A model generated the notes under the pieces. It did not search any database, was not told the DNA's origin, and worked only from the letters and a program-made list of their open reading frames with translations. From the NCBI GenBank assembly GCA_050251945.1, contig JBFWLW010000002.1:288001-352000 (forward strand): a stretch of DNA of 64,000 nt, written 5' to 3'. The DNA is from Deferribacterales bacterium. GTDB taxonomy: Bacteria > Chrysiogenota > Deferribacteres > Deferribacterales > Geovibrionaceae. Each line of letters starts with the position of its first letter. Position 1 is the first letter of the stretch. The translations under genes were made by a program, and so were the position numbers. Shown here piece by piece: positions 44,761-64,000 of this stretch.

Positions 44761-44786
44761 TTAGGTATTGCAAACACCAAACTGGA

Positions 44787-44813
44787 AAAGGCGGTCGATT
44801 GACCGCCTTTTTT
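44787..44813. terminator. Bidirectional intrinsic terminator
   Basis: AAAAGGCGGTC-GATT-GACCGCCTTTTTT between convergent genes. Confidence 0.85.
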
Positions 44814-44849
44814 CGTGAAAAGACAACAGGGAGGAATGATAAGGCTAAA

Positions 44850-45497: not shown

Positions 45498-45552
45498 AGA
45501 TTACTCCCGAAATAAAACAGGCGGTCGTAAAATACGACCGCCGCAGATTGTC

Positions 45553-46440
45553 TTAGAAAGCGTATACGAATTTAAACCAGAATCTATCTGTTTCCGGCTT
45601 GTTCTCAACATTGAACTCGTGATGGTATTTCAGATGAAACGCCATGTTTTTGTAATCATATTTCAGTTCAGGACCAAGTGCCACTGCCTGACCTTTGTTA
45701 CCGTCCAGATATTTTTCTCCATCCAGTTCATCATCGGTTATCTGTTTGTAATAATAACCGTTAATACCTACGGTATAAGGTCCGGTATGATATCCGGCAA
45801 AAGCGTCAAAGTGAAATTCCTGTCCGGATTTATAGTCTGTATCCTTGTTTTCAGTGTTTATGTCATACATAAACTTACTTGATACCTCAAATCCGCCGTC
45901 GCCAAGATATGTGACAGCAAACACAGGCTCAATTGTAAAGTAATTTCTGCCTATATTCACCATGTCGTCCTCATCATAATCCCCGACAGGAACAAAAAGC
46001 TCAGGGCCAAAGGCAAAATGCCAGTTTTTAAAATGCCATGAATCGAACAAACCTATTTCAACATCGCCCATACCGGTTTTGTCCTGTTCACTCGCAGCAG
46101 TCTTAACATTCATATGTACGAAAGGAACAATCACCTGTCCACCCAGATTACCGCCAAGAAACTGTTTCTTCGTTACATAAACGAATCTGAGTGTTTCGGC
46201 AAATCCCTTAAGTTTAAAACCGGGAACTACACTGTCTCCGTCTGAGTTGTTGAATCTGTCGGATGACATGTATTCAACGTAGTTAATAAAATACAACCCG
46301 GGGGGCGGCAGAGTGCCACCCATCGTTCCCTCCGGTCCGTTTGCAGATGCCTGACCTCCGCCCTCTGTAGCAAAAGAATATCCGGCACACAGAAAGAGAA
46401 ACAGTATTATCAGTATGCGTTTAATATTATTATTTTCCAT
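45553..46440 (-). CDS. SphA/MetA-phenol-degradation-type outer-membrane channel
   Basis: ATEGG, LPPPGLY, G.GD, P.GDYD, NIGRNY, YKSG.EFH.D, GYYYKQITDD, C-terminal F. Confidence 0.85.
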   Translation of the reverse strand: MENNNIKRILIILFLFLCAGYSFATEGGGQASANGPEGTMGGTLPPPGLYFINYVEYMSSDRFNNSDGDSVVPGFKLKGFAETLRFVYVTKKQFLGGNLGGQVIVPFVHMNVKTAASEQDKTGMGDVEIGLFDSWHFKNWHFAFGPELFVPVGDYDEDDMVNIGRNYFTIEPVFAVTYLGDGGFEVSSKFMYDINTENKDTDYKSGQEFHFDAFAGYHTGPYTVGINGYYYKQITDDELDGEKYLDGNKGQAVALGPELKYDYKNMAFHLKYHHEFNVENKPETDRFWFKFVYAF

Positions 46441-46448
46441 GACATCAC

Positions 46449-47978: not shown

Positions 47979-48090
47979 AGATACCTCCTATGTAAAAACA
48001 CAGGAGAAGCATATAAGAAAATAGAGATTTTATTAATCGGCACACATACCGGATGTATACGAAAAGTTTTGCCGTAATAATTAAGTAATA

Positions 48091-49551
48091 TTACCGGATT
48101 TTTGTATGAAGGGATATAACCACAGAAAAGCCGCCGCCTTCAGTATTCTGAAACTCCGCTGTCGCACCTATTATTGAAGACCTGTACTTAATTATCCTCA
48201 TTCCATATCCGGAATCAGTTTCATAACCGGTATCGAAACCGCATCCGTTGTCGGAAATTGTCATTATCATCATACCTTTTTTTCTCTCGAATATAATTAA
48301 GACCGATTTGCAACCGCTGTGTTTAACAGCATTGTTAACAGCCTCCTGCGCAATAAGATAAAGATGTGTGGCAACGTTGCCTTTTGGAAGATGCAGATTT
48401 CGCCCATGGCTGAAGGTACAGTTAATGGAGTAAACAGAGCTTACCCTTGCCGCCATGCACGACAATGCGTCTCCCAGATCGCTTATATCGCCGATCACAG
48501 GACAAAGCCCGTCAAGAATATTACGCATAAGTTTTTGCGTGTCAGCAGTGTATCTGACTATTTTCTCCACAATCCCGTATTCATGAACCCTGCCGCTATC
48601 CATTATCTCCAGCAGGCTGGAAGACATCATTGATATCGCCGTCAGCATCTGCCCCAAACCGTCGTGAAGGTCATGCCCGATACTGCGTCTTTCGCTGTTT
48701 GCCATCTCAAGTACCTGTTTTTCAAGAAGTTTTCTCTCCGTAATGTCGCTCAGAACCATTACAAGAGAAGTAACTTCCTTTTTATCGTTAAACACTGGAT
48801 TAACATGAATTATTAATACCTTATCCCCCATAACAACTTCTGCGGTCTGGTTGCGTTTAGTTGTTACGGATTTCGGCAGACTGCACACGGAGCAGACAAC
48901 AGGGGAACCCTGACAAAAATCGGAACATCGCCTTCCTTTCATACGGCTTTGAGGTATTTCCATAACTTCGGATATTACCCTGTTTGCCCAGATAACTTTC
49001 ATAGATGTATCAAAATATATAACTCCGTCGGACATGACGTCCAGAATAACGCGCTTTTCATTCTCAGACTGTATCAAAGCTTTGTTCGCATGCACCGTAT
49101 CTGAAATATCAAGTACAAAACCTACACCGCCGGAAAAATTGCCGTTGTCATCATAGACAGCCCTTGCGCTGTGCAATACATCTATGATCTCCCCGGATTT
49201 TTTCAGAAGCCTCCACCTGCGCTTGCTCGTATAGCCGAATTGCTTGAACTTTTCAAAACACTTCAGGTGCCCTTCGATCTCATCGTTATCTGCAAGAAAA
49301 TCTATAAAATTTCTGCCTGTAAATTCCTCCGCCTTATATCCCATTACCATCTCAAAGCCTTTGCTTAGTTTGGTTATATACGCATCTTTGTCTATTGTGA
49401 GCTCAAACACAGGCACATCATCCAGAGCGAGCATCTTCCTCTGCTCTTTTCCGTGCAGTTCGTTGTAGGCATTTTTTATCAGGAGAAGCTCTTCCTGAAG
49501 CTTATTTATTGTGTCCGCTTTATTCATATAACTTTGTCTGCATGTATCCAT
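48091..49551 (-). CDS. Cytoplasmic PAS-PAS histidine kinase (HisKA_3 type)
   Basis: ERRSIGHDLHDGLGQ, QEAVNNAVKHS, DNGCGF, GYGMR; no TM segments. Confidence 0.9.
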   Translation of the reverse strand: MDTCRQSYMNKADTINKLQEELLLIKNAYNELHGKEQRKMLALDDVPVFELTIDKDAYITKLSKGFEMVMGYKAEEFTGRNFIDFLADNDEIEGHLKCFEKFKQFGYTSKRRWRLLKKSGEIIDVLHSARAVYDDNGNFSGGVGFVLDISDTVHANKALIQSENEKRVILDVMSDGVIYFDTSMKVIWANRVISEVMEIPQSRMKGRRCSDFCQGSPVVCSVCSLPKSVTTKRNQTAEVVMGDKVLIIHVNPVFNDKKEVTSLVMVLSDITERKLLEKQVLEMANSERRSIGHDLHDGLGQMLTAISMMSSSLLEIMDSGRVHEYGIVEKIVRYTADTQKLMRNILDGLCPVIGDISDLGDALSCMAARVSSVYSINCTFSHGRNLHLPKGNVATHLYLIAQEAVNNAVKHSGCKSVLIIFERKKGMMIMTISDNGCGFDTGYETDSGYGMRIIKYRSSIIGATAEFQNTEGGGFSVVISLHTKIR

Positions 49552-50189
49552 TTAATTGCGAATTTTGTCAGCTCCGCTGCGCTGTCCAGCCCTATTTTGT
49601 GCTTTATGTTCTCCCTCACGGAATCAATGGTTTTGATGCTCAGGTTCAGCTTTGCAGCCATATCTTTTGACGTAACGCCCTCTCCTATATATTGAAAAAC
49701 CTGAAACTCCCTGTCGGAGAGGCACTCCACAGCGTCGGAATCAGTTTTTTCCTTCGGATTCATAGCTCGCAGAACAACATGCTGGGTCATCTTCGGACTG
49801 AGGTATATTCTGCCTTTCAGGATAAGCCGCATAGCTTCAATGATAACCGAAGGGCTTTCGCTCTTCATAATATATCCGGATGCTCCGGCTTTTAAACACC
49901 GCTCCGCAAAAACAAGTTCGTCATGCATGGTCAGAACAAGAATCCGCACATCATCATATCGAGCCTTAAGGCATTTAATAAAATCCAGACCATTTGAGTT
50001 TTCCAGCGTCAGATCAACAATAATAATATCTGGCTTCAGACTGAACAGCTTGCTCATGGCGGACGGACCGTCGGAAGCCGTACCGCATACTTCCATATCC
50101 GGCTCTTTATTAATTAATATAGTAAGACCTTCAAGCAAAACGGCGTGATCATCAAGAAGAAAAATAGATACTTTACCGCTCTCGGACAT
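49524..50189 (-). CDS. NarL/LuxR-family response regulator
   Basis: LDDH, VDL, LTMH, GYIMK, LSDREFQV..G..KDMA..LNLSIKT. Confidence 0.92.
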   Translation of the reverse strand: MSESGKVSIFLLDDHAVLLEGLTILINKEPDMEVCGTASDGPSAMSKLFSLKPDIIIVDLTLENSNGLDFIKCLKARYDDVRILVLTMHDELVFAERCLKAGASGYIMKSESPSVIIEAMRLILKGRIYLSPKMTQHVVLRAMNPKEKTDSDAVECLSDREFQVFQYIGEGVTSKDMAAKLNLSIKTIDSVRENIKHKIGLDSAAELTKFAIKWIHADKVI

Positions 50190-50364
50190 AGTGTTCCCCC
50201 TTATGCCAGAGTTTACCAGCAATGGAGTGTTGTTTTCAATAATCTATGGGGTTGCAAATATCCGTTTTCATAAGTGCAATAACTCTTAAATACAACCTGT
50301 TTAAAGAAAAAATTTATGTGACGGCAGTATTATAGATAAAAAAACAGTAACATTACCTAAAGAG

Positions 50365-51129
50365 CTACTTTCCCGATATGTCACTGATAACCTGATTTGT
50401 CTCTTCATCGGAGATGCGCACAGGGGGCATCAAAGCCAGCTTGTTTATACTTCTTGGGTTCTTTATCCACTCCTTCAGCCGCTTCTCAGTCCATTGTTTT
50501 TCATTGGCAGGCAAAACTGACGAAACAAAATATTTAGTCAGCAAACCGGAAAGATTAGCCGCCTCACTACCCGTGCCTTTTCCGCCTCCCTTTCTGGTTA
50601 TCATCCTGTGGCACCCGCCGCAATGCTTTTCAAAAGCCCCTTTTTTTGAAGGAGTGATATACGCGACGTAAGGTTCGCTCACCTTTTTAGGCTGTCCGGA
50701 TGCGGCGTTCAGCAGATAGAGTATCACAAGCCGTCTCTCTGTATCGGTGAAATGGAAATCCGGCATGTATTGGTTGACGTTCTTAATCTTGTCGTCCAGA
50801 TATTCCCCTGCATATTTCATGACGGACGAGTTCAGGTCTGCGGCGGCGCTTCCGCCCTCCGCTCCTATGTTATGACATCTGCGGCAGGCGGAATCCGTAA
50901 CAATTCTTTCACCTGCTGCGACAGCCTTTTTATCTGTATAGAAAGATGAGTATTCAGCCGTAAGAAGTCCTACATGGGCTACGTTTTCGCGGGATGAACG
51001 CATCTCGCCCCTGTGACAGGCGGCACATGTGCCAACCTCGACATAGTGGGGCTTATGGCACTTCGTGCAGGCAAAAACCTCGGCGGCAAGCATCAGAAAG
51101 ATCAGTAATAAAACGGTACGAGTTCCCAA
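50365..51129 (-). CDS. c-type cytochrome, 4 CxxCH (ExtS-like)
   Basis: CTKCH, CAACH, CRRCH, CGGCH, MP ligands; TTG start behind AGGGGG. Confidence 0.8.
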   Translation of the reverse strand: MGTRTVLLLIFLMLAAEVFACTKCHKPHYVEVGTCAACHRGEMRSSRENVAHVGLLTAEYSSFYTDKKAVAAGERIVTDSACRRCHNIGAEGGSAAADLNSSVMKYAGEYLDDKIKNVNQYMPDFHFTDTERRLVILYLLNAASGQPKKVSEPYVAYITPSKKGAFEKHCGGCHRMITRKGGGKGTGSEAANLSGLLTKYFVSSVLPANEKQWTEKRLKEWIKNPRSINKLALMPPVRISDEETNQVISDISGK

Positions 51130-52130
51130 TTCGCCCCCCTGAAATATACGGCGATGATCGTCAGCACCACAATGAACAGCGCTATCAGAAGAACAGGAAG
51201 CCAGATGCGCATGTCGCCTTTTGAAAACCACACTGCGCGGTCTATATGCACACGTCTGAACGACGGCAGAAAATAACACAGCACAAACACTACGGCAACC
51301 GCGTTGAACAGAGATGCGCGCCAGCTGACAACCTCCTGAATCCAAAGCAGAAACCATGCGCTCTTCGCGGGGTTCGGCGGAGTGGCGGCATCTGCAGGAA
51401 GCTCCAGAGGGCTTTTGAATATCAAAGACAGCACAACGGCAGCGGTCACAGCCGCGAGCGAAACCAAAAGCGAAAACCTCATGAGCTGTTCACGTGATTT
51501 CACCTTTTCAGGTTCCAGCATAGGCAGAAGCCCGCCGTCACGTCTTATATTATATAGATGCGCCGACAGCAGAATAAGCGTCAATGTCGGCAGAAAAACG
51601 ATATGCAGTGCGAAAAAGCGAAGAAGGGTCAGCCGCCCGCCGACATCATCCGGCATCAGTAGAGCTTTCAGAAAACCGCCCGCAGGCAGTGTGTTCATAA
51701 GCTCCATTCCGGTCTTGGTCGCCCAGAAAGAGAGCTGATCCATGGGCATGAGATAGCCCGTGTATGCCTCGAAAATTATAAGTCCGAAAATGATATAACC
51801 TAGTTTCCAGTTTTTTTTCCTGACAGAGTAAACGCCTGTGAAGACAGTCCTTAAAAGATGCAGAGCCGCAATAACCAGAAACATATGTGAACACATGCGG
51901 TGCAGGGAACGGATGAACGCGCCGCCTGCCACATGTTCTTCCAGAAACATGACGGAACCGTATGCCGCCGTGGTTTCCGGTGAGTAATAGAAAAGCAGAA
52001 GCACTCCCGTAAGCCCCAGCAGAACAAACAGGGCGGCGGAAATAATCCCCAGATATCCGGTCTTGCGGAAAGACAGGGTGTCTCTATTAAACGTCACAGG
52101 AAAAAGGTGAGCAAAAAAACGGTTTATCAT
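51102..52130 (-). CDS. Cytochrome b/b6 with fused subunit-IV-like region (ExtP/ExtQ-like)
   Basis: [58 protein letters not shown] overlaps the Rieske stop. Confidence 0.88.
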
Positions 52131-52543
52131 ACTGCGCTCCTGCGGTAGACCGTTACCTTGCCATCCTTCTCGTCGGTGACGAAAACAGTCAGCCTTTTCA
52201 CAGCGGGTCCTTTTATGACTTCGCCGTCCAGAGAAAATACGCTTCCATGACAGGGACATGCAAATTTATCACCATCCAGCGCCACAGTACAGCCCAAATG
52301 GGTGCATGTCAGCGACATCGCGGTTATCCCGCCGTTAAGCTTCATGACAGCCGTCTGTTTGTCGGAAAATATCAGCGCACCGCCCTCAGGCACATCCGCG
52401 CCTGCAACGGTCAGCACCACATCTCCGCCGGACGTCTGCGGAGTGAGAAACCTGTACAGACCGAAAAGCCCCGCCGCGCCTCCTATAACAATGGACAGCC
52501 TTCTGAGAAATCCGCGTCTGTTCATACCTTCCGATAAACCCAT
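52127..52543 (-). CDS. Rieske 2Fe-2S protein with Tat anchor
   Basis: RRGFL, CTHLGC, CPCHGS. Confidence 0.92.
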
Positions 52544-52590
52544 CAAATACCTCTGAATTATTGAATATGGCAGTATAATGAAAATAGGAT

Positions 52591-52611
52591 CGGGGGTCAA
52601 GAAGACCCCCG
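52591..52611. terminator. Hairpin after the psrC-like gene
   Basis: CGGGGGTC-AAGAA-GACCCCCG; poly-U tract weak. Confidence 0.55.
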
Positions 52612-52623
52612 CGCTGATAAAAC

Positions 52624-53553
52624 CTACTGGATATAGTCCGTAAACTTCTGAGTATAAACCCCTGCGTGGACTATCAGAAAACGCAGGAAATATCCGCCCA
52701 GAAGTACCAAAGATTCAAAAAAGATAAGCTTGCCGCCCGTAACGTGCATCCTGCCGCTCTCGCCCAGCCCGAAAACAACAGCCGGAACAAGCAGACCAAG
52801 AAACACAAGCACCGCCCAGAATTCCAGAGCAAACTTACCGCTCAAAAGGCTCTTTGCGGAATACTGCATCTCCGGCACACCCTGCATTGCAATGAGGAAC
52901 ATTCCGAAAAGAAGCAGTATCTCAAGCACTATCAGATAGAAGTGTGTTGTCTCTATCTTGTGCATGCTGTCTTCCGTCCTGAACGCAAGTTCGCGCACTA
53001 TCATCGCACCAGAAATGCCTGTTGAGGTGGCTGAGATGATGAACAGAATCGGCAAAGAGGTCTGGTGCCAGAAGGGGATCGCCCTGAGGACACCGAGCAG
53101 AACCGCCGTATAGCCGGCAGTGCAGATACCCGTGATAATAAGCATCCATTTTATCCATTTGCTGCTTCCCATGTTATCAAGCAGTTTCGGCAGCCAGCCG
53201 CCCATGAAGCGGAAAAATCTTGCCAGACCAAGGTTGTATATGGCATACAGCATGGAAAATATCGTGAAAAGTGTCAGAATTCCCGTACCCCACGAAATCG
53301 CAGAGGTGGGGTTAACGAACAGAAGAATGAGCAGCCAAGGCTTCCACATACCCTGTCCAAGGTCTATATACAGAAAGAAAATACCTATGATAACCAGCGG
53401 CATACCTATTACGCTCGCCGATTTGATAAACGAGATATATTTCTCTCTGTCGTACATATCCGCCAATACAGCCGCAACTATCGAACCCGCGCCCACTCCG
53501 GCGAGGAAAAGATAAACGGCGATATACCATTCAAATGCTTCCTGAAAAACCAT
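52624..53553 (-). CDS. NrfD/PsrC-family membrane anchor
   Basis: [47 protein letters not shown]. Confidence 0.92.
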
Positions 53554-53562
53554 ACCGCCCTC

Positions 53563-54126
53563 CTACTTTTGTATATAATAGATATTCGGCTCTGTACCGA
53601 GATCCTGACGCAGTTTCCACACTTTATAATGTTTCTCCGCGGCATCGCTCAGCAGAACGGATATTTCACTTTTGGGATCGTTTACGTCCCCGAAGACCCT
53701 TACATTGCCCGGGCATGTCGTGACGCATGCAGGGGCAAGCCCTTCCGCAATCCTCGGCAGGCAGAATGTACATTTTTCCGCCACGCCAAGTTCGTGGTTA
53801 AAGAATCTCGCGTCGTAAGGACATGATACTATGCAGTATTTACATCCGACGCATATCTTCTGGTTGATGGAGACGATGCCGTCTTCCCTCTTGTGGCTTG
53901 CCTTTGTGGGGCATACTGTGACACAGGGTGCATCGTCGCAGTGGTTGCACTGGTGGGGGAGGAAATGCATCTGCAGTTTCCTTGTATGGTCTGGGCTTTT
54001 GCCCGTATCTATGTGCGTGCGGAAATCCTCGTCCGGCACATGCCATTCCGCCTTGCACGCCACCATACATGCCTTGCAGTCAACACAGCGGTCAACAATA
54101 TATGCCATTGCGTATTTCTTTTTCAT
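53563..54126 (-). CDS. 4Fe-4S dicluster subunit (NrfC/PsrB family)
   Basis: CVDCKACMVAC, CNHCDDAPCVTVCP, CVGCKYCIVSCPY, KCTFC..PACVTTCP. Confidence 0.93.
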   Translation of the reverse strand: MKKKYAMAYIVDRCVDCKACMVACKAEWHVPDEDFRTHIDTGKSPDHTRKLQMHFLPHQCNHCDDAPCVTVCPTKASHKREDGIVSINQKICVGCKYCIVSCPYDARFFNHELGVAEKCTFCLPRIAEGLAPACVTTCPGNVRVFGDVNDPKSEISVLLSDAAEKHYKVWKLRQDLGTEPNIYYIQK

Positions 54127-54139
54127 CTTCGTCTCCCCC

Positions 54140-56329
54140 TTACGCCTTCACGACTTTTACAAAGCCGTTGTGGAAACCGGCAGAACCGCTTATGGGGTCT
54201 GTCTCATCCGACGTGAAATCGGAATCACGCGCGCCCACACCTGAAATCCTCGTCAGCATCTTGCTGACGGAACCGAATCCGTGGGGGATGAAGATGGCAT
54301 CCTTATGGATGTGGTCGACGACTTTTGCCTTGCATGCATGGCTCTTTTTATCGCCTTTGACAATGCATACGTCATCGCCGTTCTTTATACCCAGATTCTT
54401 AGCGCGATCGCTGTTTATCCAAAGCTCCACCTGAGAATGGTGCAGGGCAAGCAGCCACGCGTTGTTCTGGGTTCTGGCGTGTGTGTGGAAGCTGAGACGA
54501 CCGAACAGAAGTCTGAACTCGTCGCCTCTTGGCATCGGAGGCGCCTCATACGAAGGCATAGCTTCATAACCGAGGTCGTCCATCATACTGCTGAAAAGTT
54601 CCGCCTTGCCTGACGGCGTGTGGAACTCCGGCTCGGCACCGGATGCAATTGGGAACGGGTCGCCCTCTGCGCCCACAAGGCATCCGTGTTTCTTCATGTT
54701 CTCCTCGGTGAGACCGATGGATTCCAGAAACTCTTTATTATACTCACGTACATCCATGAAATGATTTTCGTAGCCCATCGCCTTTGAAAGACGCGCCGCT
54801 ATCTCCCATCCGCCAAGCGTATCATAAAGCGGCGGAACAGCAGGTTCGCGGTATTGTATATAACCGCTCTTTCTCGAAGTGATGATTATCGGGTCGTACC
54901 TCTCCAGATATGTGGATTCCGGCAGAACAACGTCGGAATACCATGCGGTATCCGTCATGTATATTTCGCAGGTGACGATAAGCTCGCTCGCCTTTATCGC
55001 CTTTTCCACTGTCTCCGCACTTCCCTGATTATGAAACGGATTGCAGCCGTAAACGAACATCCCTTTGAGAGGGTGCTTCTGCTCTGCTATCGCCTGCATC
55101 ATTTTGTTGGCAAGACCAAGGTCGGTGGACGCTATGGGAAACTCGGTTCCTGCACCGTCCGCCCTCTCCGTATCCACTTTCTCAAGATCGTGAACCATAT
55201 GCGGAGTGTCGAGCTTAAGAGGAACGGGCTTGTATATACCGCCCGGCTGTTCCCAGTTGCCCATGAGAGCGTTAAGGATAGCTATCGCCCTGACGAACTG
55301 GGTGTCGTTGCCGTATCTGGTGAGACGGCGACCGGGGTGGATATAGCAGTGAGGAGCCGCTTCACAGAGCTTGTTCGCAGCCTCGATGATATCTTTTTCG
55401 GGTATCTCGGTTATCTCCGCCGCCCACTTAACCGTATACTGACGGACGTGTTCTTTCAGCTCGTCCAGACCATATGTGTAGTTATCAACGAAGTCTTTGT
55501 TATATATCTCTTTTACGAGGATATAGTTTATCATCGCCAGAACGAGAGCGGTGTCCGTTCCGGGCTTTATCATCATGTATTTGTTTGCTTTCGCGGCAGT
55601 CTTGCTGTATCTGGGGTCGACATATATCACATATGCGCCGTTGGCACAGCCGTTTATGAAATCCTGAAGTTCGCCGACGTGCAGTGCCTCTGCGATGTTG
55701 CGCCCGAGGAGCATGATGCACTTGGCATTTTCTGAATCCACAGGTTCCTTTCCGCCGACGGGCTTACCGTATGTGAGCGCCCAGCCGATGTCCCTGCTGC
55801 CCGTACACTGGGCATAGGAGGGGATGCATATATTGGGCGAACCCATTATATGAAGAAGATCGACAAAAGAGTGTTCACCCGAACCGTGAGCAAAGAGAGT
55901 GAATGTTTCGGGACCGTATTTACCCTTGAGCGCGTTGCATTTTTCGGCAACGTACTTTATGGCTTCGTCCCATGAAACTTCCTTGAACTGACCGGAGCCC
56001 CTTTCACCCGTGCGGATGAGAGGCTTTTTAAGTCTGTCGGGGTCGTAAAGCTGAAAAACGCCTGAGTTGCCCTTTGCGCAAAGTTTACCGAAGTTGCTGG
56101 GGCAGCTCTTCTGTCCTTCAAGTTTCGTTACTTTCCCATCGACAACCTTAGCAGTGAGGCCGCACTTCCAGAAGCACATTTCGCACCAGTTCTGGGCGTA
56201 TGTAACTCCGGATGGGGTGGAGTGCTCAACCTCTCCGGCGATAAGACTGATTGACGGCAGGGTAGCCGCCGCCGCACCTGCGGCAATGGTTCCCTGTAAA
56301 AACCGCCTGCGGGAGATTCTGCTTTTCAT
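54140..56329 (-). CDS. Molybdopterin oxidoreductase catalytic subunit, PsrA/PhsA-like
   Basis: Tat signal SRRRFL, CEMCFWKC...LCAKG, YDPDRL, predicted Cys Mo ligand (AQCTGSR), IKPGTD, DVVLPESTYLER, HTHARTQN. Confidence 0.9.
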   Translation of the reverse strand: MKSRISRRRFLQGTIAAGAAAATLPSISLIAGEVEHSTPSGVTYAQNWCEMCFWKCGLTAKVVDGKVTKLEGQKSCPSNFGKLCAKGNSGVFQLYDPDRLKKPLIRTGERGSGQFKEVSWDEAIKYVAEKCNALKGKYGPETFTLFAHGSGEHSFVDLLHIMGSPNICIPSYAQCTGSRDIGWALTYGKPVGGKEPVDSENAKCIMLLGRNIAEALHVGELQDFINGCANGAYVIYVDPRYSKTAAKANKYMMIKPGTDTALVLAMINYILVKEIYNKDFVDNYTYGLDELKEHVRQYTVKWAAEITEIPEKDIIEAANKLCEAAPHCYIHPGRRLTRYGNDTQFVRAIAILNALMGNWEQPGGIYKPVPLKLDTPHMVHDLEKVDTERADGAGTEFPIASTDLGLANKMMQAIAEQKHPLKGMFVYGCNPFHNQGSAETVEKAIKASELIVTCEIYMTDTAWYSDVVLPESTYLERYDPIIITSRKSGYIQYREPAVPPLYDTLGGWEIAARLSKAMGYENHFMDVREYNKEFLESIGLTEENMKKHGCLVGAEGDPFPIASGAEPEFHTPSGKAELFSSMMDDLGYEAMPSYEAPPMPRGDEFRLLFGRLSFHTHARTQNNAWLLALHHSQVELWINSDRAKNLGIKNGDDVCIVKGDKKSHACKAKVVDHIHKDAIFIPHGFGSVSKMLTRISGVGARDSDFTSDETDPISGSAGFHNGFVKVVKA

Positions 56330-56388
56330 TTGTGTCCCTCTTGATTTTTGCGTGATGAGGGACATTTGTACCGATTGAACTTAACACC

Positions 56389-56431
56389 ATAATAATATAG
56401 CCAATGGATTTGTCAATAATTATCGGACAAA
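56389..56431 (-). promoter_or_regulatory. Sigma70 promoter of the psrABC-like cassette with overlapping inverted repeat
   Basis: TTGACA-N16-TATTAT on the minus strand; TTTGTC-N11-GACAAA (56409-56431) covers the -35. Confidence 0.55.
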
Positions 56432-56601
56432 AAAATATATAAAAAATATTGTATACAATTTTAATTTTAATTAAGACTAAATATGAATTAATTACAAGGA
56501 ATCAAACTTGCAAGTATTGCATTTGTTTTTTCAATAGCACTATCGCTTCTTTATAATTACAATGGCGTATCGCTTATTTGATGATGCTTTTAATTAAGGA
56601 T

Positions 56602-56686
56602 GAGATCGCTTCGGGCATAAAGCCATCGCGAAGACGGAATAAAAGTCACGTCTTTGCGAGAAAACCGCAGGTTGACGAAGCAATCT
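56602..56686. repeat. REPIN-like element, copy 6
   Basis: GAGATCGCTTCG..TCGCGAAGAC / GTCTTTGCGAG..GACGAAGCAATCT. Confidence 0.8.
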
Positions 56687-56742
56687 GAACCACATAGAAT
56701 TCTCAGTGCAATATATTACCGCCGCGCCGCCGTATTCAGAAT

Positions 56743-58020
56743 CTATTTTTCTGCGTTTTCCACCGTGTCGGTCACCTGTCTCCATTTCTTCATTGCGGCT
56801 TTCTTATATTCTATATTTTTGGTCGTGATTCTTTTGTATTCAGAGTCGTTTACAAAACGACCGTTCACTACTTTGAATCCTTTGAAGTTATAAAAACTCT
56901 CAAAAGGCAGCCCGTCTTTATCTGTCAGATAAAGCCTGTCCTCTCTCTTCTCACGCATCAGTCTTCTCGCGTCGGCATGACAGCTTTCACACATAACCGT
57001 TTCACGGCGCACAGTGTGCGGGAATACCGCTCTGAAATCGGCGGACAGCATGTTATTCTCTCTGCCCACGACCTTGTCATCTTTGATATTGGTCAGAAAC
57101 GCAATATACTGAGGGCGAAGGGGCGAATACTTCTTCCGTCCGTTTACGCCTATGGGAAAATCCGCATACTGTTTCGTATGGCTGCTCTTCGCATAATCTA
57201 TGTGCGGGCGCTTAACCCATCTGAAATATTCTGAAAATTTCGTATTCTGCAAATATATCCAGAAAGTGCCGTATTCCTGATTTGCCCATGCGGAATGGCA
57301 TGTGTAGCACTCCATACGGCTGTGTCCGGCTATCGAATGTTCCACCGAGGAACTCTTCTTCATATCGTGGCAGTCAGTGCATGTCTTAGAAAATTTCCTG
57401 CCCTCGGCAAGGCTCTTCATGGAGTGACATTCGCCGCACTGCATCCCCTTTTCGTGGTGTACGTCCGGAAGCATGGAGGCATATTTCCCGCCCTTATATT
57501 CTTTTCCTCTGGAATATCTTTCATGGTCTTCGCGCTGTCCCAGCCCGCTGTATTCGATGCCAGTGTAATAGTCCCTGTGGCACTCCTGACAGTTGGCGGT
57601 TGTCGGTTTTTTAATGGCATGGGGATTCCCGCCGTCATGGCAGTTCATACAGCTTAACACATGGCAGTTCTGACAGTTTTTGTTCCAGAACTGTCCGTCA
57701 ACACGCCCGTATGTCTTATCGACAAACACCTTTTCAGAACTTCTGTGAACCATCGGACTTTCAATAATTCCCGCGTATTCAGCGTGGCAGTTCAGACATC
57801 CTTTCGCCGATACAGAGAAATCAGCCGCTTTATCGTAGTGCTCCTTATTGGGCGCGTGGCACGTTTCGCATTTCTGTTTTGCGTGTACTCCCGTCACCCT
57901 TTCCTTGTGGCAGGCGGCGCAGTTTTTGTCGCTTTTCTCCAGAGCAAAGCCGCTTTCAGCGGAGCAGAGGCTTATGCACAGGGTCAGAAAGAACGCTGTC
58001 GTATGAAAACTTCTTGCCAT
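56743..58020 (-). CDS. Decaheme cytochrome c (ext cluster)
   Basis: 10 CxxCH motifs and a signal peptide. Start inferred at ATG 58020, overlapping the upstream gene. Confidence 0.88.
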   Translation of the reverse strand: MARSFHTTAFFLTLCISLCSAESGFALEKSDKNCAACHKERVTGVHAKQKCETCHAPNKEHYDKAADFSVSAKGCLNCHAEYAGIIESPMVHRSSEKVFVDKTYGRVDGQFWNKNCQNCHVLSCMNCHDGGNPHAIKKPTTANCQECHRDYYTGIEYSGLGQREDHERYSRGKEYKGGKYASMLPDVHHEKGMQCGECHSMKSLAEGRKFSKTCTDCHDMKKSSSVEHSIAGHSRMECYTCHSAWANQEYGTFWIYLQNTKFSEYFRWVKRPHIDYAKSSHTKQYADFPIGVNGRKKYSPLRPQYIAFLTNIKDDKVVGRENNMLSADFRAVFPHTVRRETVMCESCHADARRLMREKREDRLYLTDKDGLPFESFYNFKGFKVVNGRFVNDSEYKRITTKNIEYKKAAMKKWRQVTDTVENAEK

Positions 58021-59815
58021 ATATCCTGCCTTCTCCTTTTTCGTGGCAAACAATGCACTGGTTCGCCCTTAACATGGAAGCCAGCTCATTGTTGTTCAGA
58101 ATCCTCGAATGGTCGCGGACGACATCAGACGTCACATCCTGCTTTCCGTTCTTTATGCTGTACAGCGAATCAAGCGGTTTTTCGCACTTGTCGCAAAGAT
58201 ATGCGCTGTTTATGTTTCTCTTGGTTACAGATACCAAGCCCTGACCGTAGCCCGCAAAAGCAAGCTTCGTATGGCACGTTTCACAGCTCACCGCCTTTTT
58301 GCCCGTGTTGTGACTGTAAAACGGTGCAAATTTGAAGTTCTTCACCCCTCTGTAGTTGAAAACGTGGTCGTCCAGAACCTTTTCACCCTTTTCGTCCAGC
58401 ACGGTCAGAAACGTCTGACAGCCGGGGGTTACGGGAGATATCTTCCCGCGCTGGTTCACGCCCAGAGGGAACGGAAAAAGTGTCCTGAAATCCTCGGTTT
58501 CACTGAACGCCCCGTATGTGTCCTGCCCTTTGATCAGGTCGGTCATCTTTTCACTTTTGTCGTATGTGGTGTGACAGCCGTAGCATTGAACGACGGTATT
58601 GGAATGACATGTGTAACATTCCATCCGGTCGTGACCGTATACGCAGTGGTTATTGGTATTCATAACCGTCTTTATCTCAATGCGCTTACCTTCGCGCTTT
58701 GTATACAGGTAATATTTGCCCTTTTCTTTGCGTACGTTGGAATACATACGCCCTTTGGACGTAAGCACCATTTCGTCGCCGTAGTTCACCCTGAAAGCAT
58801 AGTTCTGCGATTCCCTCACGGGTCTGCTGTTCTCTCTGGTCACCTTCTGCGTTTTCGGGAGGGCGTTCTCTGTTCCGTGGCAGTCCTCGCAGGCGGTCTC
58901 AATCTGCATGTACATGTTCTCGTACATATATCCGTCGCCCATCATATCAGCCGAGGTGTGACAGTCGATACACTCCATCCCGAAATCAAAATGGATATCC
59001 GCCTGCATATGGCGCACGTTGCGCACACCGTCTATAAGATCTGGTCCCGGATACCCCCCGCTTGTGGGTACCAGCGAGTTGTTGCCGTCGTAAAAGCCTT
59101 CGTATGAAAGAGCTATCCGTCCGCTTCTGTTGTGGCACGTCAGACATACGTCATTTGAAGGAAGAGCGGAAATCTCATGTTTTTCGGGATAAGGACCTTT
59201 GCCGTGGATGGTCTTGTCGCCGCCCTTGTAAGTTCCCTCGACCGAATGGTTAAAGTGACATGCGGAACAGCCGGAGGAGTGATGAGCGCGGTAGCCCTCC
59301 AGCTTGTCATAACCGACGTGGCATGCGGAACAGAATTTTCTGTAAAGCTCGCCGGAAAGCTCTTCAAGTTCCGCAACCGAAGCTCTCTTCTGCGGATTGC
59401 CCTCCGCGTCGAAACCGTCGGCTCCGTGAGTGCTGTAAAGTTTGCCCTCATAGTCGTCCCACGCCTGCTGAGAATTCTTTATCATCCCAGTCGCGGTGTA
59501 CATAAGCGTTTTTGAAACCCGCTCAAGCTGATACTGGTGGCATTGTCCGCAGGTCTTGTCCCATACGGACGGATCACTGGGGTTTCGTCCGCCCAGCATA
59601 TCCGCATGGGCAGCCTTTTTTTCCGACGCTTTCGGGTCGCCGCCGTGGCACTTTTCGCAGGGTATTTCATGATTTTTTGAAGGATACTCTATTCCGGCGT
59701 GGCAATCCGCCGACATACAGCCGACAACCGCTTCGCCCGTGTGATAGAACCCGAAATACACGAACGCAGCGGCGCATACCGTTAAAGTGATTCCCGCAAT
59801 TATGTATTTCAGCAT
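57956..59815 (-). CDS. extM: Multiheme cytochrome c, ExtM-like (11 CxxCH + 1 CX4CH)
   Basis: N-terminal anchor, 11 CxxCH, CMSADCH; position after extHIJ-like genes. Confidence 0.8.
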   Translation of the reverse strand: MLKYIIAGITLTVCAAAFVYFGFYHTGEAVVGCMSADCHAGIEYPSKNHEIPCEKCHGGDPKASEKKAAHADMLGGRNPSDPSVWDKTCGQCHQYQLERVSKTLMYTATGMIKNSQQAWDDYEGKLYSTHGADGFDAEGNPQKRASVAELEELSGELYRKFCSACHVGYDKLEGYRAHHSSGCSACHFNHSVEGTYKGGDKTIHGKGPYPEKHEISALPSNDVCLTCHNRSGRIALSYEGFYDGNNSLVPTSGGYPGPDLIDGVRNVRHMQADIHFDFGMECIDCHTSADMMGDGYMYENMYMQIETACEDCHGTENALPKTQKVTRENSRPVRESQNYAFRVNYGDEMVLTSKGRMYSNVRKEKGKYYLYTKREGKRIEIKTVMNTNNHCVYGHDRMECYTCHSNTVVQCYGCHTTYDKSEKMTDLIKGQDTYGAFSETEDFRTLFPFPLGVNQRGKISPVTPGCQTFLTVLDEKGEKVLDDHVFNYRGVKNFKFAPFYSHNTGKKAVSCETCHTKLAFAGYGQGLVSVTKRNINSAYLCDKCEKPLDSLYSIKNGKQDVTSDVVRDHSRILNNNELASMLRANQCIVCHEKGEGRIYGKKFSYDSVLSDPVHKPLLR

Positions 59816-59903
59816 CTGCCCACCAAAGTTTTTTTCTGATTATATGAGATATTGAATAGAAAATAAAGCCCCGCTCAGGCTGATGACAAAAACAGATAAA
59901 CAC

Positions 59904-59979
59904 GAGATTGCTTCGCTATGCTCGCAAAGACGGAAGTTCCTGTCATTGCGAGGAAGCCGCAGGCTGACGCGGCAATCTC
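59904..59979. repeat. REPIN-like element, copy 7
   Basis: GAGATTGCTTCG..CTCGCAAAGAC / GTCATTGCGAGG..GACGCGGCAATCTC. Confidence 0.82.
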
Positions 59980-60040
59980 ATTGGTTTAAAAGTGATTGTC
60001 AACAACATGAGCGGGGCATAAAGCCCCGCCGAAATATTGA

Positions 60041-60256
60041 TTAACAGCCCTGAAGTTTGAAGCCGGGTTTAGCGCCCACAGCTTCCACCTTCACCGCGTC
60101 GCCTGCCTTAACATCAATTGCGCTGTCCAGCTTAATTGTGATGTTAGTTCCGTCAACACTTGTAACTTTACCTTTTGAGGATTTTGCAGCAGCGATCGCT
60201 ATTCCTGCTGTAACAACCATCACAGCAAGCACGATAATTCCAAGTTTCTTTTTCAT
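60041..60256 (-). CDS. extJ: Small periplasmic protein, ExtJ-like, C-terminal LQGC
   Basis: Signal peptide, GKVTSVDG...K.GD.V, terminal GC; directly after the porin gene. Confidence 0.75.
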   Translation of the reverse strand: MKKKLGIIVLAVMVVTAGIAIAAAKSSKGKVTSVDGTNITIKLDSAIDVKAGDAVKVEAVGAKPGFKLQGC

Positions 60257-60284
60257 TTCATCATCTCCTTTCGCTTGTTTTCAA

Positions 60285-61487
60285 TTAAAATCTGACCTGC
60301 ATATACAGTTCAAATGTGTCAAAGTCCTGATAGTTGGTGTTAGAACCAACTTCTTTATCAAAGTCCGTCTGTGAATACTGTGCAGTTATTTTGATTTTGT
60401 CTTCGTCTATATAGTAGTTCACACCGGCAGCGGCAAATTTGACCTCATTGTCATAGTAGCCGTTGAGGTTTGCGAATGTGAAATCATCATAACGTCCGAA
60501 GAACTGCACTTGACCGGGGCCTACGTTAAAGGGAAGCATATAGCCCGCTTTAACATAGTAGCCGTCGCGTTCGCCGTAGAGACCATATGAATTGGCATCG
60601 GGGTCTGCACCTTTGTAAGCGTCGTCAAAGCTGATGTTCAGATATGCGCCGGACAGTGTGAAAGTACCTGCCGCAGTGGGAACCTCGCCGAAGATGTCAT
60701 ATGAGTAAGCGGCATAGTCTTTCTTGTCGGCATAGTTGTCAACGTCGGCATATACTGCATCAGGCTCATACTGATAGGATGCGCCTGCTGTCAGCACTGT
60801 TTTCTTGCCGAAATATGTACCTTTGTAGCCATAGCCTGATTCCTTGTCGAAAAGAGACACATGGACACGACCGGTATAGCGGAGATTTGAGCCGGGATCG
60901 GGTGAACCGTCGTCAGAATCGCCTGTGCGTCCTTCCTGAATCTCGCCTCTGACCTGTACCATATTGTCAAGGAACTCTGCGCGCGCTCCGATACCTTTGT
61001 CGCGGCTTGTTTTAAAGGGCGCATATACAAAGTATGAACGGTCGAGCGTCAGCGGGTTGAAACAGCCCTCAAGGTTTTCCCTTGTGAGGGAGTGCTTGAA
61101 CTTACCGAGAATTACGTCGAAATTCTCGAAAGGGGTATATCTGATCTGTGCGTCAAGAAGATAGAAATCTTTGCCGTCGTCGTCAGATATGTCCACATAC
61201 AGCGGGTTTATGTTCTTGTCTTCAATGTACTCTGTCTGAACATAAAAGCTGAGCTGTTCGTTGTATGTTCCGATGAAACCAATTCTGTTTCTTCTGAAGT
61301 TGAACTCGTTGGTGCCATCTTCCGCATTTTCTCCGCTTCCCGTGTTCCTGCCTGAATAGCCGAACTGAGCGTCATAAAAGAATTGCAGATATTTTCCATC
61401 GCCAAGCTCAATGGGCTTGAAGGCAAACGCGCTTCCCGCACACATGAGCATCAGCATCAGAACGGTTAATATTTTTGTCTTAAACAT
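60285..61487 (-). CDS. extI: OprO/P-type porin, ExtI-like
   Basis: Signal peptide, FRRNR, LLDAQ, GKFK..TRENLE, SRDKG, C-terminal QVRF. Confidence 0.8.
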   Translation of the reverse strand: MFKTKILTVLMLMLMCAGSAFAFKPIELGDGKYLQFFYDAQFGYSGRNTGSGENAEDGTNEFNFRRNRIGFIGTYNEQLSFYVQTEYIEDKNINPLYVDISDDDGKDFYLLDAQIRYTPFENFDVILGKFKHSLTRENLEGCFNPLTLDRSYFVYAPFKTSRDKGIGARAEFLDNMVQVRGEIQEGRTGDSDDGSPDPGSNLRYTGRVHVSLFDKESGYGYKGTYFGKKTVLTAGASYQYEPDAVYADVDNYADKKDYAAYSYDIFGEVPTAAGTFTLSGAYLNISFDDAYKGADPDANSYGLYGERDGYYVKAGYMLPFNVGPGQVQFFGRYDDFTFANLNGYYDNEVKFAAAGVNYYIDEDKIKITAQYSQTDFDKEVGSNTNYQDFDTFELYMQVRF

Positions 61488-61509
61488 AATTTTTACTCTC
61501 CGGTTTTAA

Positions 61510-63036
61510 TCAGCATCCGCTGGGACCGCTGGGAGTTGTTCCAGAATCATCTGAGCCGCTGTCGTCGTCAGTGTCGGTGTCGTCACCTGTATCATCGTCG
61601 GAAGCGACATATGCTTTGTCAGTCTCTTCAATTTCGTTGCCTGTCCCTGTGTAAGCAGGATTCACATTAAACATGATAACGCCTAGAGCGTCTTTCCATG
61701 ATGTTGTTGCAGACAGTGTTGCTGTCTGCGGCGCAACGGTGATAAGACCGCTTGCAACTGTAGGAGCAGCTGTTGAAAGTTTGAATGTGTCATATGCAAG
61801 GATGCCGGTATTTGTTGTGCTTGACTGAAGAGGTCCGCCAAGAGCAACTATAACGCCTGTTGTGTCGCTTGTTGCAGTGTTAGCAGCTCCAACGGCAGGG
61901 ACACTTGCAGAATTGGTGTAATACATGAATGAGGAAGTTCCCCAATACACTTCTTCAGAAGCGTAAGAAGCGCCTCTTTCATAACCAGCATGGCTTGACC
62001 AAGCAGACCATGAACCGTCATAAAGAGCTACGTTGTCATATCCGAGGACTTCTTTTATGTAATAGTAAACGGGTGTTGCGGAATAACCGGACACACAGTG
62101 AACAACTATTGTATCGGTCGATTTAACACCGGCAGCTGTGAGAAGCGCTTCGCCTGATGTTTTATCAAGAAACTTGCCGCTGACAATAACAGAGGCAGCG
62201 TTAATGCCTGTTACAGCGCCCTTGATACGTCCGCTGAAAGCAACTGAACCCTGTGTTCCTGCACCTCTGACATCGATAACTTTTACAGAACCTGCTCTTA
62301 CAAGATCTATAACGTTTTTAGTTGTTACACGGGCTGCATCATGCAGACCGGGAAGATTTTTTACTGAAAAAGTGTTGTCCGCAGGATCAACTGATGCAGA
62401 AGAAGTATCCACAAGAGATGCATCGACAGCTTTAACAGCAGCCACACCGCCGTCCAGAACTTTTATCTTGGATTCGGAGAATCCCCAATAGTAAAACAGC
62501 CACCATGCTCTTGTCAGATCATAGTTGCTTGACGAAAGAGCAGAGTTTGTAAATACGATGACAGTGTCTTTTGTAACGCCCATATCCTGAATCATCTTGT
62601 CCATAGTGGCGCCTGTAGTTGCCATTCTGGCAGAGGTTGCTCTTGCGTCTATAGAGTCGATGGGACCTTCCGCTCTGTACTCATCAAGAGCGAAACCAGT
62701 GATATCGGATTTGCTGAGAGAACCGATAATCCTGTCAGCTGTGGTTGAAAAATCTGTTTGTACATCAACGATAAGTACGGGATAACCCGCTCCTGTTTTC
62801 GCAGAAGAGGTTGTTTTGAACCCGTTATTAATCCAAGCTGCCACATCGTCGGCGGAGACAGCAGTTTCATCGGATACATCATAACCTGTCCACCATGCGT
62901 TGGGGTCTTCCGCTGCAGGTGTTGTGGGAGCCTCATACGACCCGCCGCCTCCACATGCTGAAAGCAGTGCCAAGGCAGAAACGAATGCAGCCGCCATGAC
63001 AAACTGACGACCTTTTCTCAATAAAGAGTCTTTCAT
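61510..63036 (-). CDS. extH: Tandem rhodanese-domain lipoprotein, ExtH-like
   Basis: Lipobox LSAC, RAWWLFYYWG..KVLDGG, IDVR, VHCVSGYSA active-site loop, LYDGSWSAW; acidic tail ending GC. ATG 63036 behind GGAGG. Confidence 0.8.
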   Translation of the reverse strand: MKDSLLRKGRQFVMAAAFVSALALLSACGGGGSYEAPTTPAAEDPNAWWTGYDVSDETAVSADDVAAWINNGFKTTSSAKTGAGYPVLIVDVQTDFSTTADRIIGSLSKSDITGFALDEYRAEGPIDSIDARATSARMATTGATMDKMIQDMGVTKDTVIVFTNSALSSSNYDLTRAWWLFYYWGFSESKIKVLDGGVAAVKAVDASLVDTSSASVDPADNTFSVKNLPGLHDAARVTTKNVIDLVRAGSVKVIDVRGAGTQGSVAFSGRIKGAVTGINAASVIVSGKFLDKTSGEALLTAAGVKSTDTIVVHCVSGYSATPVYYYIKEVLGYDNVALYDGSWSAWSSHAGYERGASYASEEVYWGTSSFMYYTNSASVPAVGAANTATSDTTGVIVALGGPLQSSTTNTGILAYDTFKLSTAAPTVASGLITVAPQTATLSATTSWKDALGVIMFNVNPAYTGTGNEIEETDKAYVASDDDTGDDTDTDDDSGSDDSGTTPSGPSGC

Positions 63037-63605
63037 AAAATCCTCCAAAATTCGGGCAAAAGCCCATACGTCATACTGTTTTGTGTAAGTTCAGCCGGAT
63101 ATCAAATGTCCGAATCACGCTTTTCGTTACGAATCACTCCGGGCAAAGGCTCACGCAACTGACCCCGCCCTGATTTATATACTTGTTCAAATTCAATCAT
63201 ATGAAAGCCATAGCGTCAACAAAACATAGCATATGCCCAATACTGTTAACACCAATCTTTCCATAGATTTAGATATCCGTATGTTGATATGTTTGCCCGT
63301 AAAGAAGAGGCATATGCCAATAAAGACGAATTACGTCTTTTAAAAAAGTATGAAAGTTTTTTTGATTTTCAGACCGAATGAATATTTCAAATAAGAAATA
63401 TTTTCATTCAACAAAATAATTTTATATATCTTTCTGAATAAAGAAATAAATTAATTTACGCATTTTTAGTAGGATTTTACCTAAATTTAACTTGATAAAA
63501 AACGTAACGTTAAGCAGTGAACAGATATGATTCATCAGAAAGACTTAAAACTTGTTTTCCCACAGCAAAATGCTAGAATAAAAAGAAAAATCACCGAGGT
63601 GCTTT

Positions 63606-64000
63606 ATGGATTGCATTTTCTGCAAAATAATAAGCGGAGAGATTCCCTGCAGCAAAGTTTATGAGGACGACCTCTTTATTGCTTTTCTCGACATCAAACC
63701 CATCAGAAAAGGGCACACGCTCATTGTGCCGAAAAAGCATTTCGAGAACATATTCGACACACCGGAAGCGGAGGCACAGGCTATTTATCAGGTAACAGGC
63801 AGAGTTGCCGCCGCCGTTAAAGAGGCTACTGGAGCGTCGGGTATCAACGTTATACAGAATAACGGCGAGGATTCCGGACAGGAAGTTTTCCACTCACACC
63901 TGCATATCATTCCCAGAAAAAAAGACGACGGTCTGAAATTTGAACGCCAGCATGAGGAATATAACGGATTTGAAGAGATGGGCAAACTCGCCCACCGCAT
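63606..64000 (+). CDS. HIT family nucleotide hydrolase (runs off the window)
   Basis: MDCIFCKIISGEIP..VYED..AFLDI.P..GHTLIVPK..NNG..GQEVFHSHLHIIPR; GAGG RBS. Absent from the supplied ORF track. Confidence 0.93.
   Translation, partial: MDCIFCKIISGEIPCSKVYEDDLFIAFLDIKPIRKGHTLIVPKKHFENIFDTPEAEAQAIYQVTGRVAAAVKEATGASGINVIQNNGEDSGQEVFHSHLHIIPRKKDDGLKFERQHEEYNGFEEMGKLAHR

What the first reader, a model, noticed from the sequence alone, without database searches (positions are those of the whole stretch)
50365..63036. Hybrid chalcogen-respiration cluster: ext-like operon with a PsrABC molybdoenzyme cassette inside and no ExtKL
Seen: 11 co-oriented genes in the order rhodanese lipoprotein, porin, small GC-tailed protein, ~12-heme cytochrome, 10-heme cytochrome, [Mo-bisPGD enzyme, 4Fe-4S subunit, NrfD anchor], Rieske, cytochrome b, 4-heme cytochrome. 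Known (from memory): the outer genes match the Geobacter sulfurreducens extHIJKLM...S cluster linked to selenite/tellurite/sulfur reduction, where a multiheme selenoprotein ExtKL follows extJ. Here there is no ORF between extJ and extM, and a PsrABC-type enzyme interrupts the cytochrome/bc part. Inference: this is a Sec-independent variant. S/Se would be captured at the surface, imported via the porin, carried by Cys-tailed proteins and reduced by a Cys-ligated molybdoenzyme, with two quinol interfaces (NrfD and Rieske/cyt b).
Basis: partly seen in the sequence, partly recalled or inferred. Interest (0 to 1): 0.85.

Follow-up and report, generated by a model that had tools for sequence, protein, structure and literature searches.

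The report
Sulfur-respiration cluster with a swappable reductase
This is a real eleven-gene respiratory cluster of a kind already sketched in a related bacterium in 2010; it likely reduces polysulfide with a molybdenum enzyme, and genome comparisons show that this enzyme family and an unrelated selenium-heme enzyme almost always take each other's place beside the same helper genes.

Summary
In detail: extH-I-J-M-N-psrA-B-C-O-PQ-S on the minus strand, with no extKL in the cluster, the genome, or 68 of 68 genomes of the phylum. The gene set is not new: Takaki 2010 (PMC2885270) described it in Deferribacter desulfuricans and noted a psr-less version in Geobacter. The host is not selenocysteine-free (selA, selB, selD, tRNA-Sec). 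psrABC-OPQS probably has its own promoter. What I did not find in print is the complementarity. ExtKL is now a proven polysulfide reductase (MccSep). In 161 genomes of another class, 30 of 30 extM-bearing genomes without ExtKL have a Psr-family enzyme, against 4 of 50 with ExtKL. The state changes at least 8 times on the ExtM tree, and at least three separate PsrA clades were recruited. Best reading: one uptake, carrier and electron-supply chassis with an exchangeable polysulfide reductase. Against it, Seleniivibrio woodruffii and Denitrovibrio acetiphilus are tabulated as not reducing sulfur. Substrate and wiring are untested.

The parts
61510..63036 (-). extH-like rhodanese lipoprotein, lipobox LSAC (Cys32 of the long ORF), rhodanese Cys318, C-terminal GC
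   Evidence: PF00581 E 4e-13; NF040901 131 bits, below cut-off 200; Cys positions
60285..61487 (-). extI outer-membrane porin
   Evidence: NF040900 527 bits, cut-off 150
60041..60256 (-). extJ, 71-aa exported protein ending in LQGC; inferred sulfur carrier
   Evidence: NF040942 57.6 bits, cut-off 52.5; terminal GC invariant in 33 of 33 aligned homologues chosen for ending in GC
59816..60040 (.). J-M gap: hairpin after extJ plus a dispersed repeat; no extKL remnant
   Evidence: 74 blastn hits in the genome
57956..59815 (-). extM multiheme cytochrome c (11 CxxCH + 1 CxxxxCH), N-terminal hydrophobic anchor
   Evidence: NF040943 930 bits, cut-off 800
56743..58020 (-). extN 10-heme cytochrome c (likely start 58020)
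   Evidence: NF040967 476 bits, cut-off 200
56389..56416 (-). sigma-70-like site TTGACA-16-TATTAT before psrA; predicted promoter of psrABC-OPQS
   Evidence: best of 20 sites, 11 of 12 (the number of sites overall is at chance level, 17.8 in shuffles); kept in 5 of 5 same-genus ext loci, not in G023 or G031
54140..56329 (-). psrA: Tat-exported Mo-bisPGD catalytic subunit with His148, Cys175, Arg334 (numbered from the start at 56329)
   Evidence: Pfam; best PDB match Thermus PsrA 2vpw-2vpz, E 2e-157, next 2e-48; motif columns
53563..54126 (-). psrB: 16 Cys, four 4Fe-4S motifs
52624..53553 (-). psrC: NrfD-family membrane anchor, 8 hydrophobic segments
   Evidence: PF03916 E 2e-34
52127..52543 (-). 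extO Rieske 2Fe-2S protein (CTHLGC, CPCH; twin-arginine leader)
   Evidence: PF00355
51102..52130 (-). fused extPQ cytochrome b6-like subunit plus subunit IV-like part
   Evidence: NF040969 and NF040970 on successive parts, both below cut-off
50365..51129 (-). extS 4-heme cytochrome c (likely start 51129)
   Evidence: NF040971 243 bits, cut-off 100

Best explanation
The cluster encodes an ext-type chassis (porin, rhodanese lipoprotein, Cys-tailed small protein, multiheme cytochromes, Rieske/cytochrome b) together with a PsrABC molybdoenzyme that likely serves as its polysulfide reductase, in the role that the unrelated selenoenzyme ExtKL/MccSep has in Geobacter. Shown: gene content, absence of extKL, a Thermus-type Psr active site, and near-complete complementarity of ExtKL and Psr across genomes. 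Inferred: polysulfide formed outside from S0 and sulfide enters through ExtI; ExtH and the GC-tailed ExtJ hold it as persulfide and hand it to PsrA in the periplasm; PsrA cleaves the S-S bond to release sulfide; electrons come from quinol through PsrC and PsrB. Least certain: ExtO/PQ/S and ExtM/N give a second route from the quinone pool that can feed either reductase.
For: MccSep (ExtKL) reduces polysulfide and is needed for S0 respiration (bioRxiv 10.1101/2025.11.18.688581). Window PsrA is closest to Thermus PsrA among solved structures and keeps the residues aligned to its His145, Cys173, Arg332 (their roles are recalled). Class of G068, 161 genomes: ExtM in 80, ExtKL in 50, all 50 with ExtM; a PsrA-family match in 30 of 30 ExtM+/KL-, 4 of 50 ExtM+/KL+, 14 of 81 ExtM- (these at 38% identity or less). 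In 20 of the 30, psrA lies on the same strand within about 9 kb upstream of extM. In 5 of 80 loci, psr genes sit exactly between extJ and extM. Among 129 distinct ExtM loci none held both. At least 8 changes on the ExtM tree; at least three separate PsrA clades. A small exported GC-tailed gene lies beside 28 of 29 psr loci of KL-less genomes and 0 of 5 control psr loci, and accompanies extKL where it has moved away from extM (2 of 2 fetched). In the window's phylum the window-type psrA is in 18 of 68 genomes, 17 with ExtM and the 18th with the other ext genes beside it; the link survives at least five gene orders. In G068, G069, G121, G159 and G184 PsrAB has no NrfD gene, and in G121 and G159 it is followed directly by extOPQS. 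Takaki 2010 made the same porin/carrier proposal.
Against: PMC6896113 lists S. woodruffii and D. acetiphilus as not reducing S0 and suggests their Psr-like enzymes reduce other acceptors, although both species names are attached to close orthologues of this PsrA (P0002-P0004) and a locus titled S. woodruffii has the whole cluster (L095). The same paper has D. autotrophicus reducing S0 without this Psr branch. Exclusivity is not absolute: G110, G125, G160, G162, G523 and G525 have both, and G019 and G022 keep extM with neither linked. The Mo enzymes linked in G003 and in family f7 lack the His/QCxGxR motif, so the slot is not limited to the Thermus type. psrA probably has its own promoter and PsrABC is self-sufficient in known systems (recalled). 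Sequence does not separate polysulfide from thiosulfate or selenite reductases; the PhsA model scores 475, below its cut-off of 694. One search scored only 6 candidates per genome, completeness was not reported for that class, and related genomes are not independent. No expression or binding evidence was obtained.
Confidence: 0.6

Rival explanations
1. Same architecture, different substrate: the enzyme mainly reduces selenite/polyselenide, thiosulfate or tetrathionate, and the chassis delivers that anion.
For: S0-negative phenotypes of S. woodruffii and D. acetiphilus; ExtI is implicated in selenite and tellurite reduction (PMC5877670 passages); MccSep also reduces selenite; divergent Mo enzymes occupy the position in G003 and family f7.
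Against: MccSep prefers polysulfide and has no thiosulfate or tetrathionate activity, so exchange with Psr points to their shared substrate; the nearest outside relatives are Sulfurospirillum and Hippea proteins; D. desulfuricans, which has the locus, reduces S0.
Confidence: 0.25
2. Co-located but not wired together: PsrABC works alone through PsrC, with H-I-J as its uptake helpers, while M-N-O-PQ-S is an independent bc-type quinol:cytochrome c complex kept nearby for co-regulation.
For: Probable internal promoter; psrABC-OPQS is a separate locus from HIJMN in 4 of 4 genomes of genus g3; distant ExtM-like loci (about 30% identity), five of the eight fetched with Rieske and cytochrome b genes following, have no H, I, J, KL or psr nearby (8 of 8).
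Against: OPQS follows psr directly in most Deferribacterales orders, and NrfD-less PsrAB-OPQS loci exist; ExtKL never occurs without ExtM (50 of 50); ExtM almost never lacks one of the two reductases in the class sample (0 of 80).
Confidence: 0.3
3. The unit runs in reverse or as detoxification: Psr oxidises sulfide to polysulfide during nitrate or microaerobic respiration and the Rieske/cytochrome b part passes electrons to higher-potential acceptors.
For: Reversibility of Psr-type enzymes is raised in PMC6896113; Rieske/cytochrome b complexes normally pass electrons to high-potential carriers (established knowledge); it would explain S0-negative phenotypes.
Against: Its counterpart MccSep is shown to be needed in the reducing direction; nothing here tests direction.
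Confidence: 0.1

Closest known systems
Deferribacter desulfuricans SSM1 locus DEFDS_0665-0677 (Takaki et al. 2010, PMC2885270)
   Same: psrABC with porin, rhodanese lipoprotein, two multiheme cytochromes and a bc complex; same proposed roles for porin and rhodanese. PsrA 55% identical to P0016, named as from that strain.
   Different: Gene order (the cytochrome pair lies between extJ and psrA here; by locus tags it lies on the far side of porin and rhodanese there) and fused PQ. That description is in silico and predates MccSep.
Geobacter sulfurreducens extHIJKLMNOPQS with MccSep/ExtKL (PMC5877670; PMC13510729)
   Same: Homologues of H, I, J, M, N, O, P, Q, S in the same relative order.
   Different: No ExtKL in the genome; psrABC between N and O; probable second promoter; P and Q fused.
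PsrABC/PhsABC polysulfide and thiosulfate reductases (Thermus PsrABC, PDB 2vpw-2vpz; Wolinella Psr with Sud, as cited in PMC2885270)
   Same: A-B-C order, Tat leader, Cys ligand motif, four-cluster B subunit, 8-helix NrfD anchor.
   Different: Embedded among porin, GC-tailed proteins, multiheme cytochromes and a Rieske/cytochrome b unit; below the PhsA equivalog cut-off.

Membership tests
Geobacter ext cluster | ExtI, ExtJ, ExtM, ExtN, ExtS homologues | tested here: met
   all over NCBIfam cut-offs
Geobacter ext cluster | ExtH rhodanese lipoprotein | tested here: inconclusive
   best match NF040901 but 131 bits against cut-off 200; lipobox, rhodanese Cys and GC tail present
Geobacter ext cluster | Rieske ExtO and cytochrome b ExtP/ExtQ | tested here: inconclusive
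   Rieske motifs present; P and Q fused and each below cut-off
Geobacter ext cluster | ExtKL (MccSep) between extJ and extM | tested here: not met
   no match in the genome, best E 1.7 with a 30-sequence profile; 0 of 68 in the phylum; positive control G071
PsrABC/PhsABC | Tat-exported Mo-bisPGD subunit with N-terminal 4Fe-4S and Cys ligand | tested here: met
PsrABC/PhsABC | four-cluster B subunit and NrfD-type C subunit, in order A-B-C | tested here: met
PhsA equivalog (NF012032) | score over curated cut-off | tested here: not met
   475 bits against 694
PsrABC/PhsABC | polysulfide (or thiosulfate) reductase activity | not testable with these tools
   needs enzyme assay
D. desulfuricans DEFDS_0665-0677 type locus | psrABC + porin + rhodanese lipoprotein + two multiheme cytochromes + bc complex | tested here: met
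   gene order differs
Arr, Ttr, DMSO/selenate reductase families | catalytic subunit scoring as ArrA, TtrA, DmsA, YnfE/F | tested here: not met
   all far below PhsA score and their cut-offs

The most novel reading that the evidence does not exclude
The ext genes are a general polysulfide-respiration chassis with an exchangeable catalytic head: a Sec/heme enzyme (MccSep) and molybdoenzymes of several Psr clades have replaced one another at least eight times, without loss of the Sec machinery, and small exported GC-tailed proteins are the shared sulfur shuttles while ExtM/N/O/PQ/S are the missing electron donor for both heads.
Probability: 0.5. Interest if true: 0.72.

Novelty: new member of a known kind. 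Interest (0 to 1): 0.5.

Why it matters
The MccSep paper leaves open how polysulfide reaches the enzyme and what donates its electrons. If two unrelated polysulfide reductases are swapped on the same set of partner genes, those partners are the obvious answer, and the idea can be tested by one cross-complementation. It would be a clear case of repeated non-orthologous displacement between a selenium-heme and a molybdenum catalyst, and it would change how sulfur respiration is predicted from genomes: extM plus either head, not psrA or mccsep alone. The locus in this window is itself an ordinary example.

Tried and rejected
ExtKL remnant or hidden Sec ORF in the J-M gap: rejected, it is a dispersed repeat. 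Sec read-through after the GC tails: rejected, mixed stop codons. Loss of Sec machinery as the cause of the swap: rejected. Complex prediction of PsrA with ExtJ: no answer, no evidence either way. ExtJ model: mean pLDDT 70, pTM 0.42, no fold match at E 0.001. RNA data: one run with 0.09 of the words, low-depth contigs of relatives, uninformative. Rfam: no match in 44000-64000. ExtI family search in five genomes rang nowhere, so it shows no absence. The Fisher test printed (p 5e-18) is not used, because genomes are related. Earlier scan findings: three look-ups returned nothing. PMC9751629 and PMC13186404 held no relevant passage for the terms searched. The PsrA tree left out 14 of 85 collected Mo enzymes as distant outgroups; 39 of 130 ExtM rows had no state and were not counted.
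Full report
Observation. The eleven ORFs lie on the minus strand in the order extH, I, J, M, N, psrA, B, C, extO, PQ, S. ExtI, J, M, N and S pass NCBIfam cut-offs; ExtH, P and Q are best matches below cut-off, with P and Q fused. Heme motifs are 11 CxxCH plus one CxxxxCH in M, 10 in N and 4 in S. Gaps are under 30 bases or overlapping except J-M (225), N-psrA (413) and psrC-O (80). The two large gaps hold a dispersed repeat (74 and 31 blastn hits). The N-psrA gap also has the best promoter-like site of the region, kept in 5 of 5 ext loci of the genus but not in G023 or G031. Loci of same-genus genomes are titled Seleniivibrio.

ExtKL and selenocysteine. A profile of 30 ExtKL sequences read through UGA finds nothing in the genome (best E 1.7; 99.97% complete), and an 11-row alignment finds 0 of 68 genomes of the phylum, with a positive control in G071. 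The host has selA, selB, selD with one in-frame TGA, and tRNA-Sec just past the window end. Five of five ExtKL-less, Psr-bearing genomes of another class also keep selA. The absence of ExtKL is therefore not explained by loss of Sec synthesis.

The enzyme. PsrA has a Tat leader, an Fe-S domain and a Mo-bisPGD domain. Its best solved relative is Thermus PsrA (E 2e-157; next 2e-48), with the residues aligned to His145, Cys173 and Arg332 kept (their catalytic roles are recalled, not read). Orthologues at 48-93% include proteins named S. woodruffii, D. acetiphilus, Limisalsivibrio acetivorans, D. desulfuricans and Flexistipes; the next relatives at 41-45% include Sulfurospirillum and Hippea. A second Psr-like paralogue in the genome (37%) has a different motif and no ext neighbours.

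Own phylum. ExtM passes the cut-off in 30 of 68 genomes and is near full length in 4 more. The window-type psrA is in 18 of 68; 17 of these have ExtM and G020 has N-H-I-J-psrABC-OPQS on a short contig. Orders seen include HIJ-MN-psr-OPQS, MN-HIJ-psr-OPQS, OPQS-MN-HIJ-psr, psr-MN-OPQS, and HIJMN apart from psr-OPQS. In family f7, 4 of 11 ExtM genomes were examined and all four have a divergent Mo enzyme upstream of O and PQ; in three it has an Fdn-like membrane anchor. G003 has a different Psr-family enzyme with a multi-rhodanese gene right after extS on the other strand. G019 and G022 keep parts of the chassis with neither head linked.

Other class. In 161 genomes of the class of G068 (Desulfuromonadia by recall; locus L088 is titled Geopsychrobacteraceae), 80 have ExtM and 50 ExtKL, all 50 among the 80. 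A PsrA-family match occurs in 30 of 30 ExtM+/KL-, 4 of 50 ExtM+/KL+ and 14 of 81 ExtM- genomes (only 6 candidates scored per genome, completeness not reported). In 20 of the 30, psrA is within about 9 kb upstream of extM on the same strand. Of the other ten, nine were fetched at psrA; G151 was not. A small exported GC-tailed gene lies near 28 of 29 of these psr loci and 0 of 5 control loci; G125, which has both heads, also has one. Many of these are not ExtJ homologues but Lys-rich proteins with the same tail. Among the 80 loci, ExtKL with UGA was extracted from 31 and psr genes fill the J-M position in 5. Further genomes with both heads are G523 and G525.

Independence. On a FastTree ExtM tree of 130 rows, 91 labelled, the KL/Psr state needs at least 8 changes, with sister pairs such as L093 (KL) against L081 and L122 (Psr), and Geomonas KL loci against G. 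silvestris (Psr). KL labels are mostly locus-level. On a 71-row PsrA tree the ext-linked enzymes fall in at least three separate well-supported clades. Both are fast trees with long-branch warnings; no clade test was run.

Prior work. Takaki 2010 (PMC2885270; passages and supplement legend; one supplement file not searchable, figure not seen) describes psr with porin, rhodanese lipoprotein, two multiheme cytochromes and a bc complex in D. desulfuricans, proposes polysulfide import and binding, and notes a similar locus without psr in Geobacter and Desulfuromonas acetoxidans. The MccSep preprint (abstract, results and discussion, parts 1-3 of 6) and its journal version (PMC13510729, passages) show ExtKL is a polysulfide reductase and leave delivery route and electron donor open; their supplementary datasets were not seen and may bear on gene context. 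PMC5877670 (passages) defines the ext cluster. PMC6896113 (passages and Table 2) gives the contrary phenotypes. PMC10553843 and PMC11976967 (passages) mention ExtKL homologues only. I found no paper on ExtKL/Psr complementarity in ten searches; the library lacks most subscription journals.

Mechanism and verdict. Most likely, polysulfide enters through ExtI, is carried on the Cys of ExtH and the GC tail of ExtJ, and is reduced by PsrA with quinol electrons through PsrC and PsrB; ExtO/PQ/S and M/N may supply a second route, as suggested by NrfD-less PsrAB loci followed by OPQS. All these steps are inferred. The published S0-negative phenotypes keep another chalcogen substrate plausible. The locus is a new member of a described kind; the comparative pattern is the part worth following up.

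Noticed in passing
G000:C2:352026-352121 (26 bases past the window end): tRNA-Sec gene directly after the HIT gene that diverges from extH, about 1 kb from the cluster; followed by a DmsAB-like operon with chaperone on the other strand.
   Followed up: partly
window 56333-56364: An 8-bp stem covers the psrA ribosome-binding site (z -2.6) and is partly kept in G036 and G023; possible translational control. No Rfam match.
   Followed up: partly
window 44850-50222: Downstream unit on the same strand: LuxR-type regulator, PAS kinase, flavocytochrome-type FAD subunit, MetA-type porin and a multiheme c3 protein; present after extS in G034 but not in the other relatives examined, so not part of the cluster.
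   Followed up: partly
whole genome G000: 18 Mo-bisPGD matches, several with multiheme cytochrome neighbours.
   Followed up: no
L059, L065, L069, L124, L130: Desulfobacterales loci encode a fused ExtM-ExtN of about 990 aa with 19 heme motifs, in three cases preceded by a TauE-family gene and in three with a divergent Psr-like pair on the other strand.
   Followed up: partly
L215-L222: Distant ExtM-like genes (about 30% identity) in other Desulfobacterota, mostly as tandem cytochromes with Rieske and cytochrome b, without H, I, J, KL or psr nearby; possibly an older, separate complex.
   Followed up: partly
L152, L153, L157, L162, L165, L167: A gene of about 550 aa beside GC-tailed genes and extM in several Psr-type loci; the two tested are methyl-accepting chemotaxis proteins, hinting at taxis linked to the substrate.
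   Followed up: no
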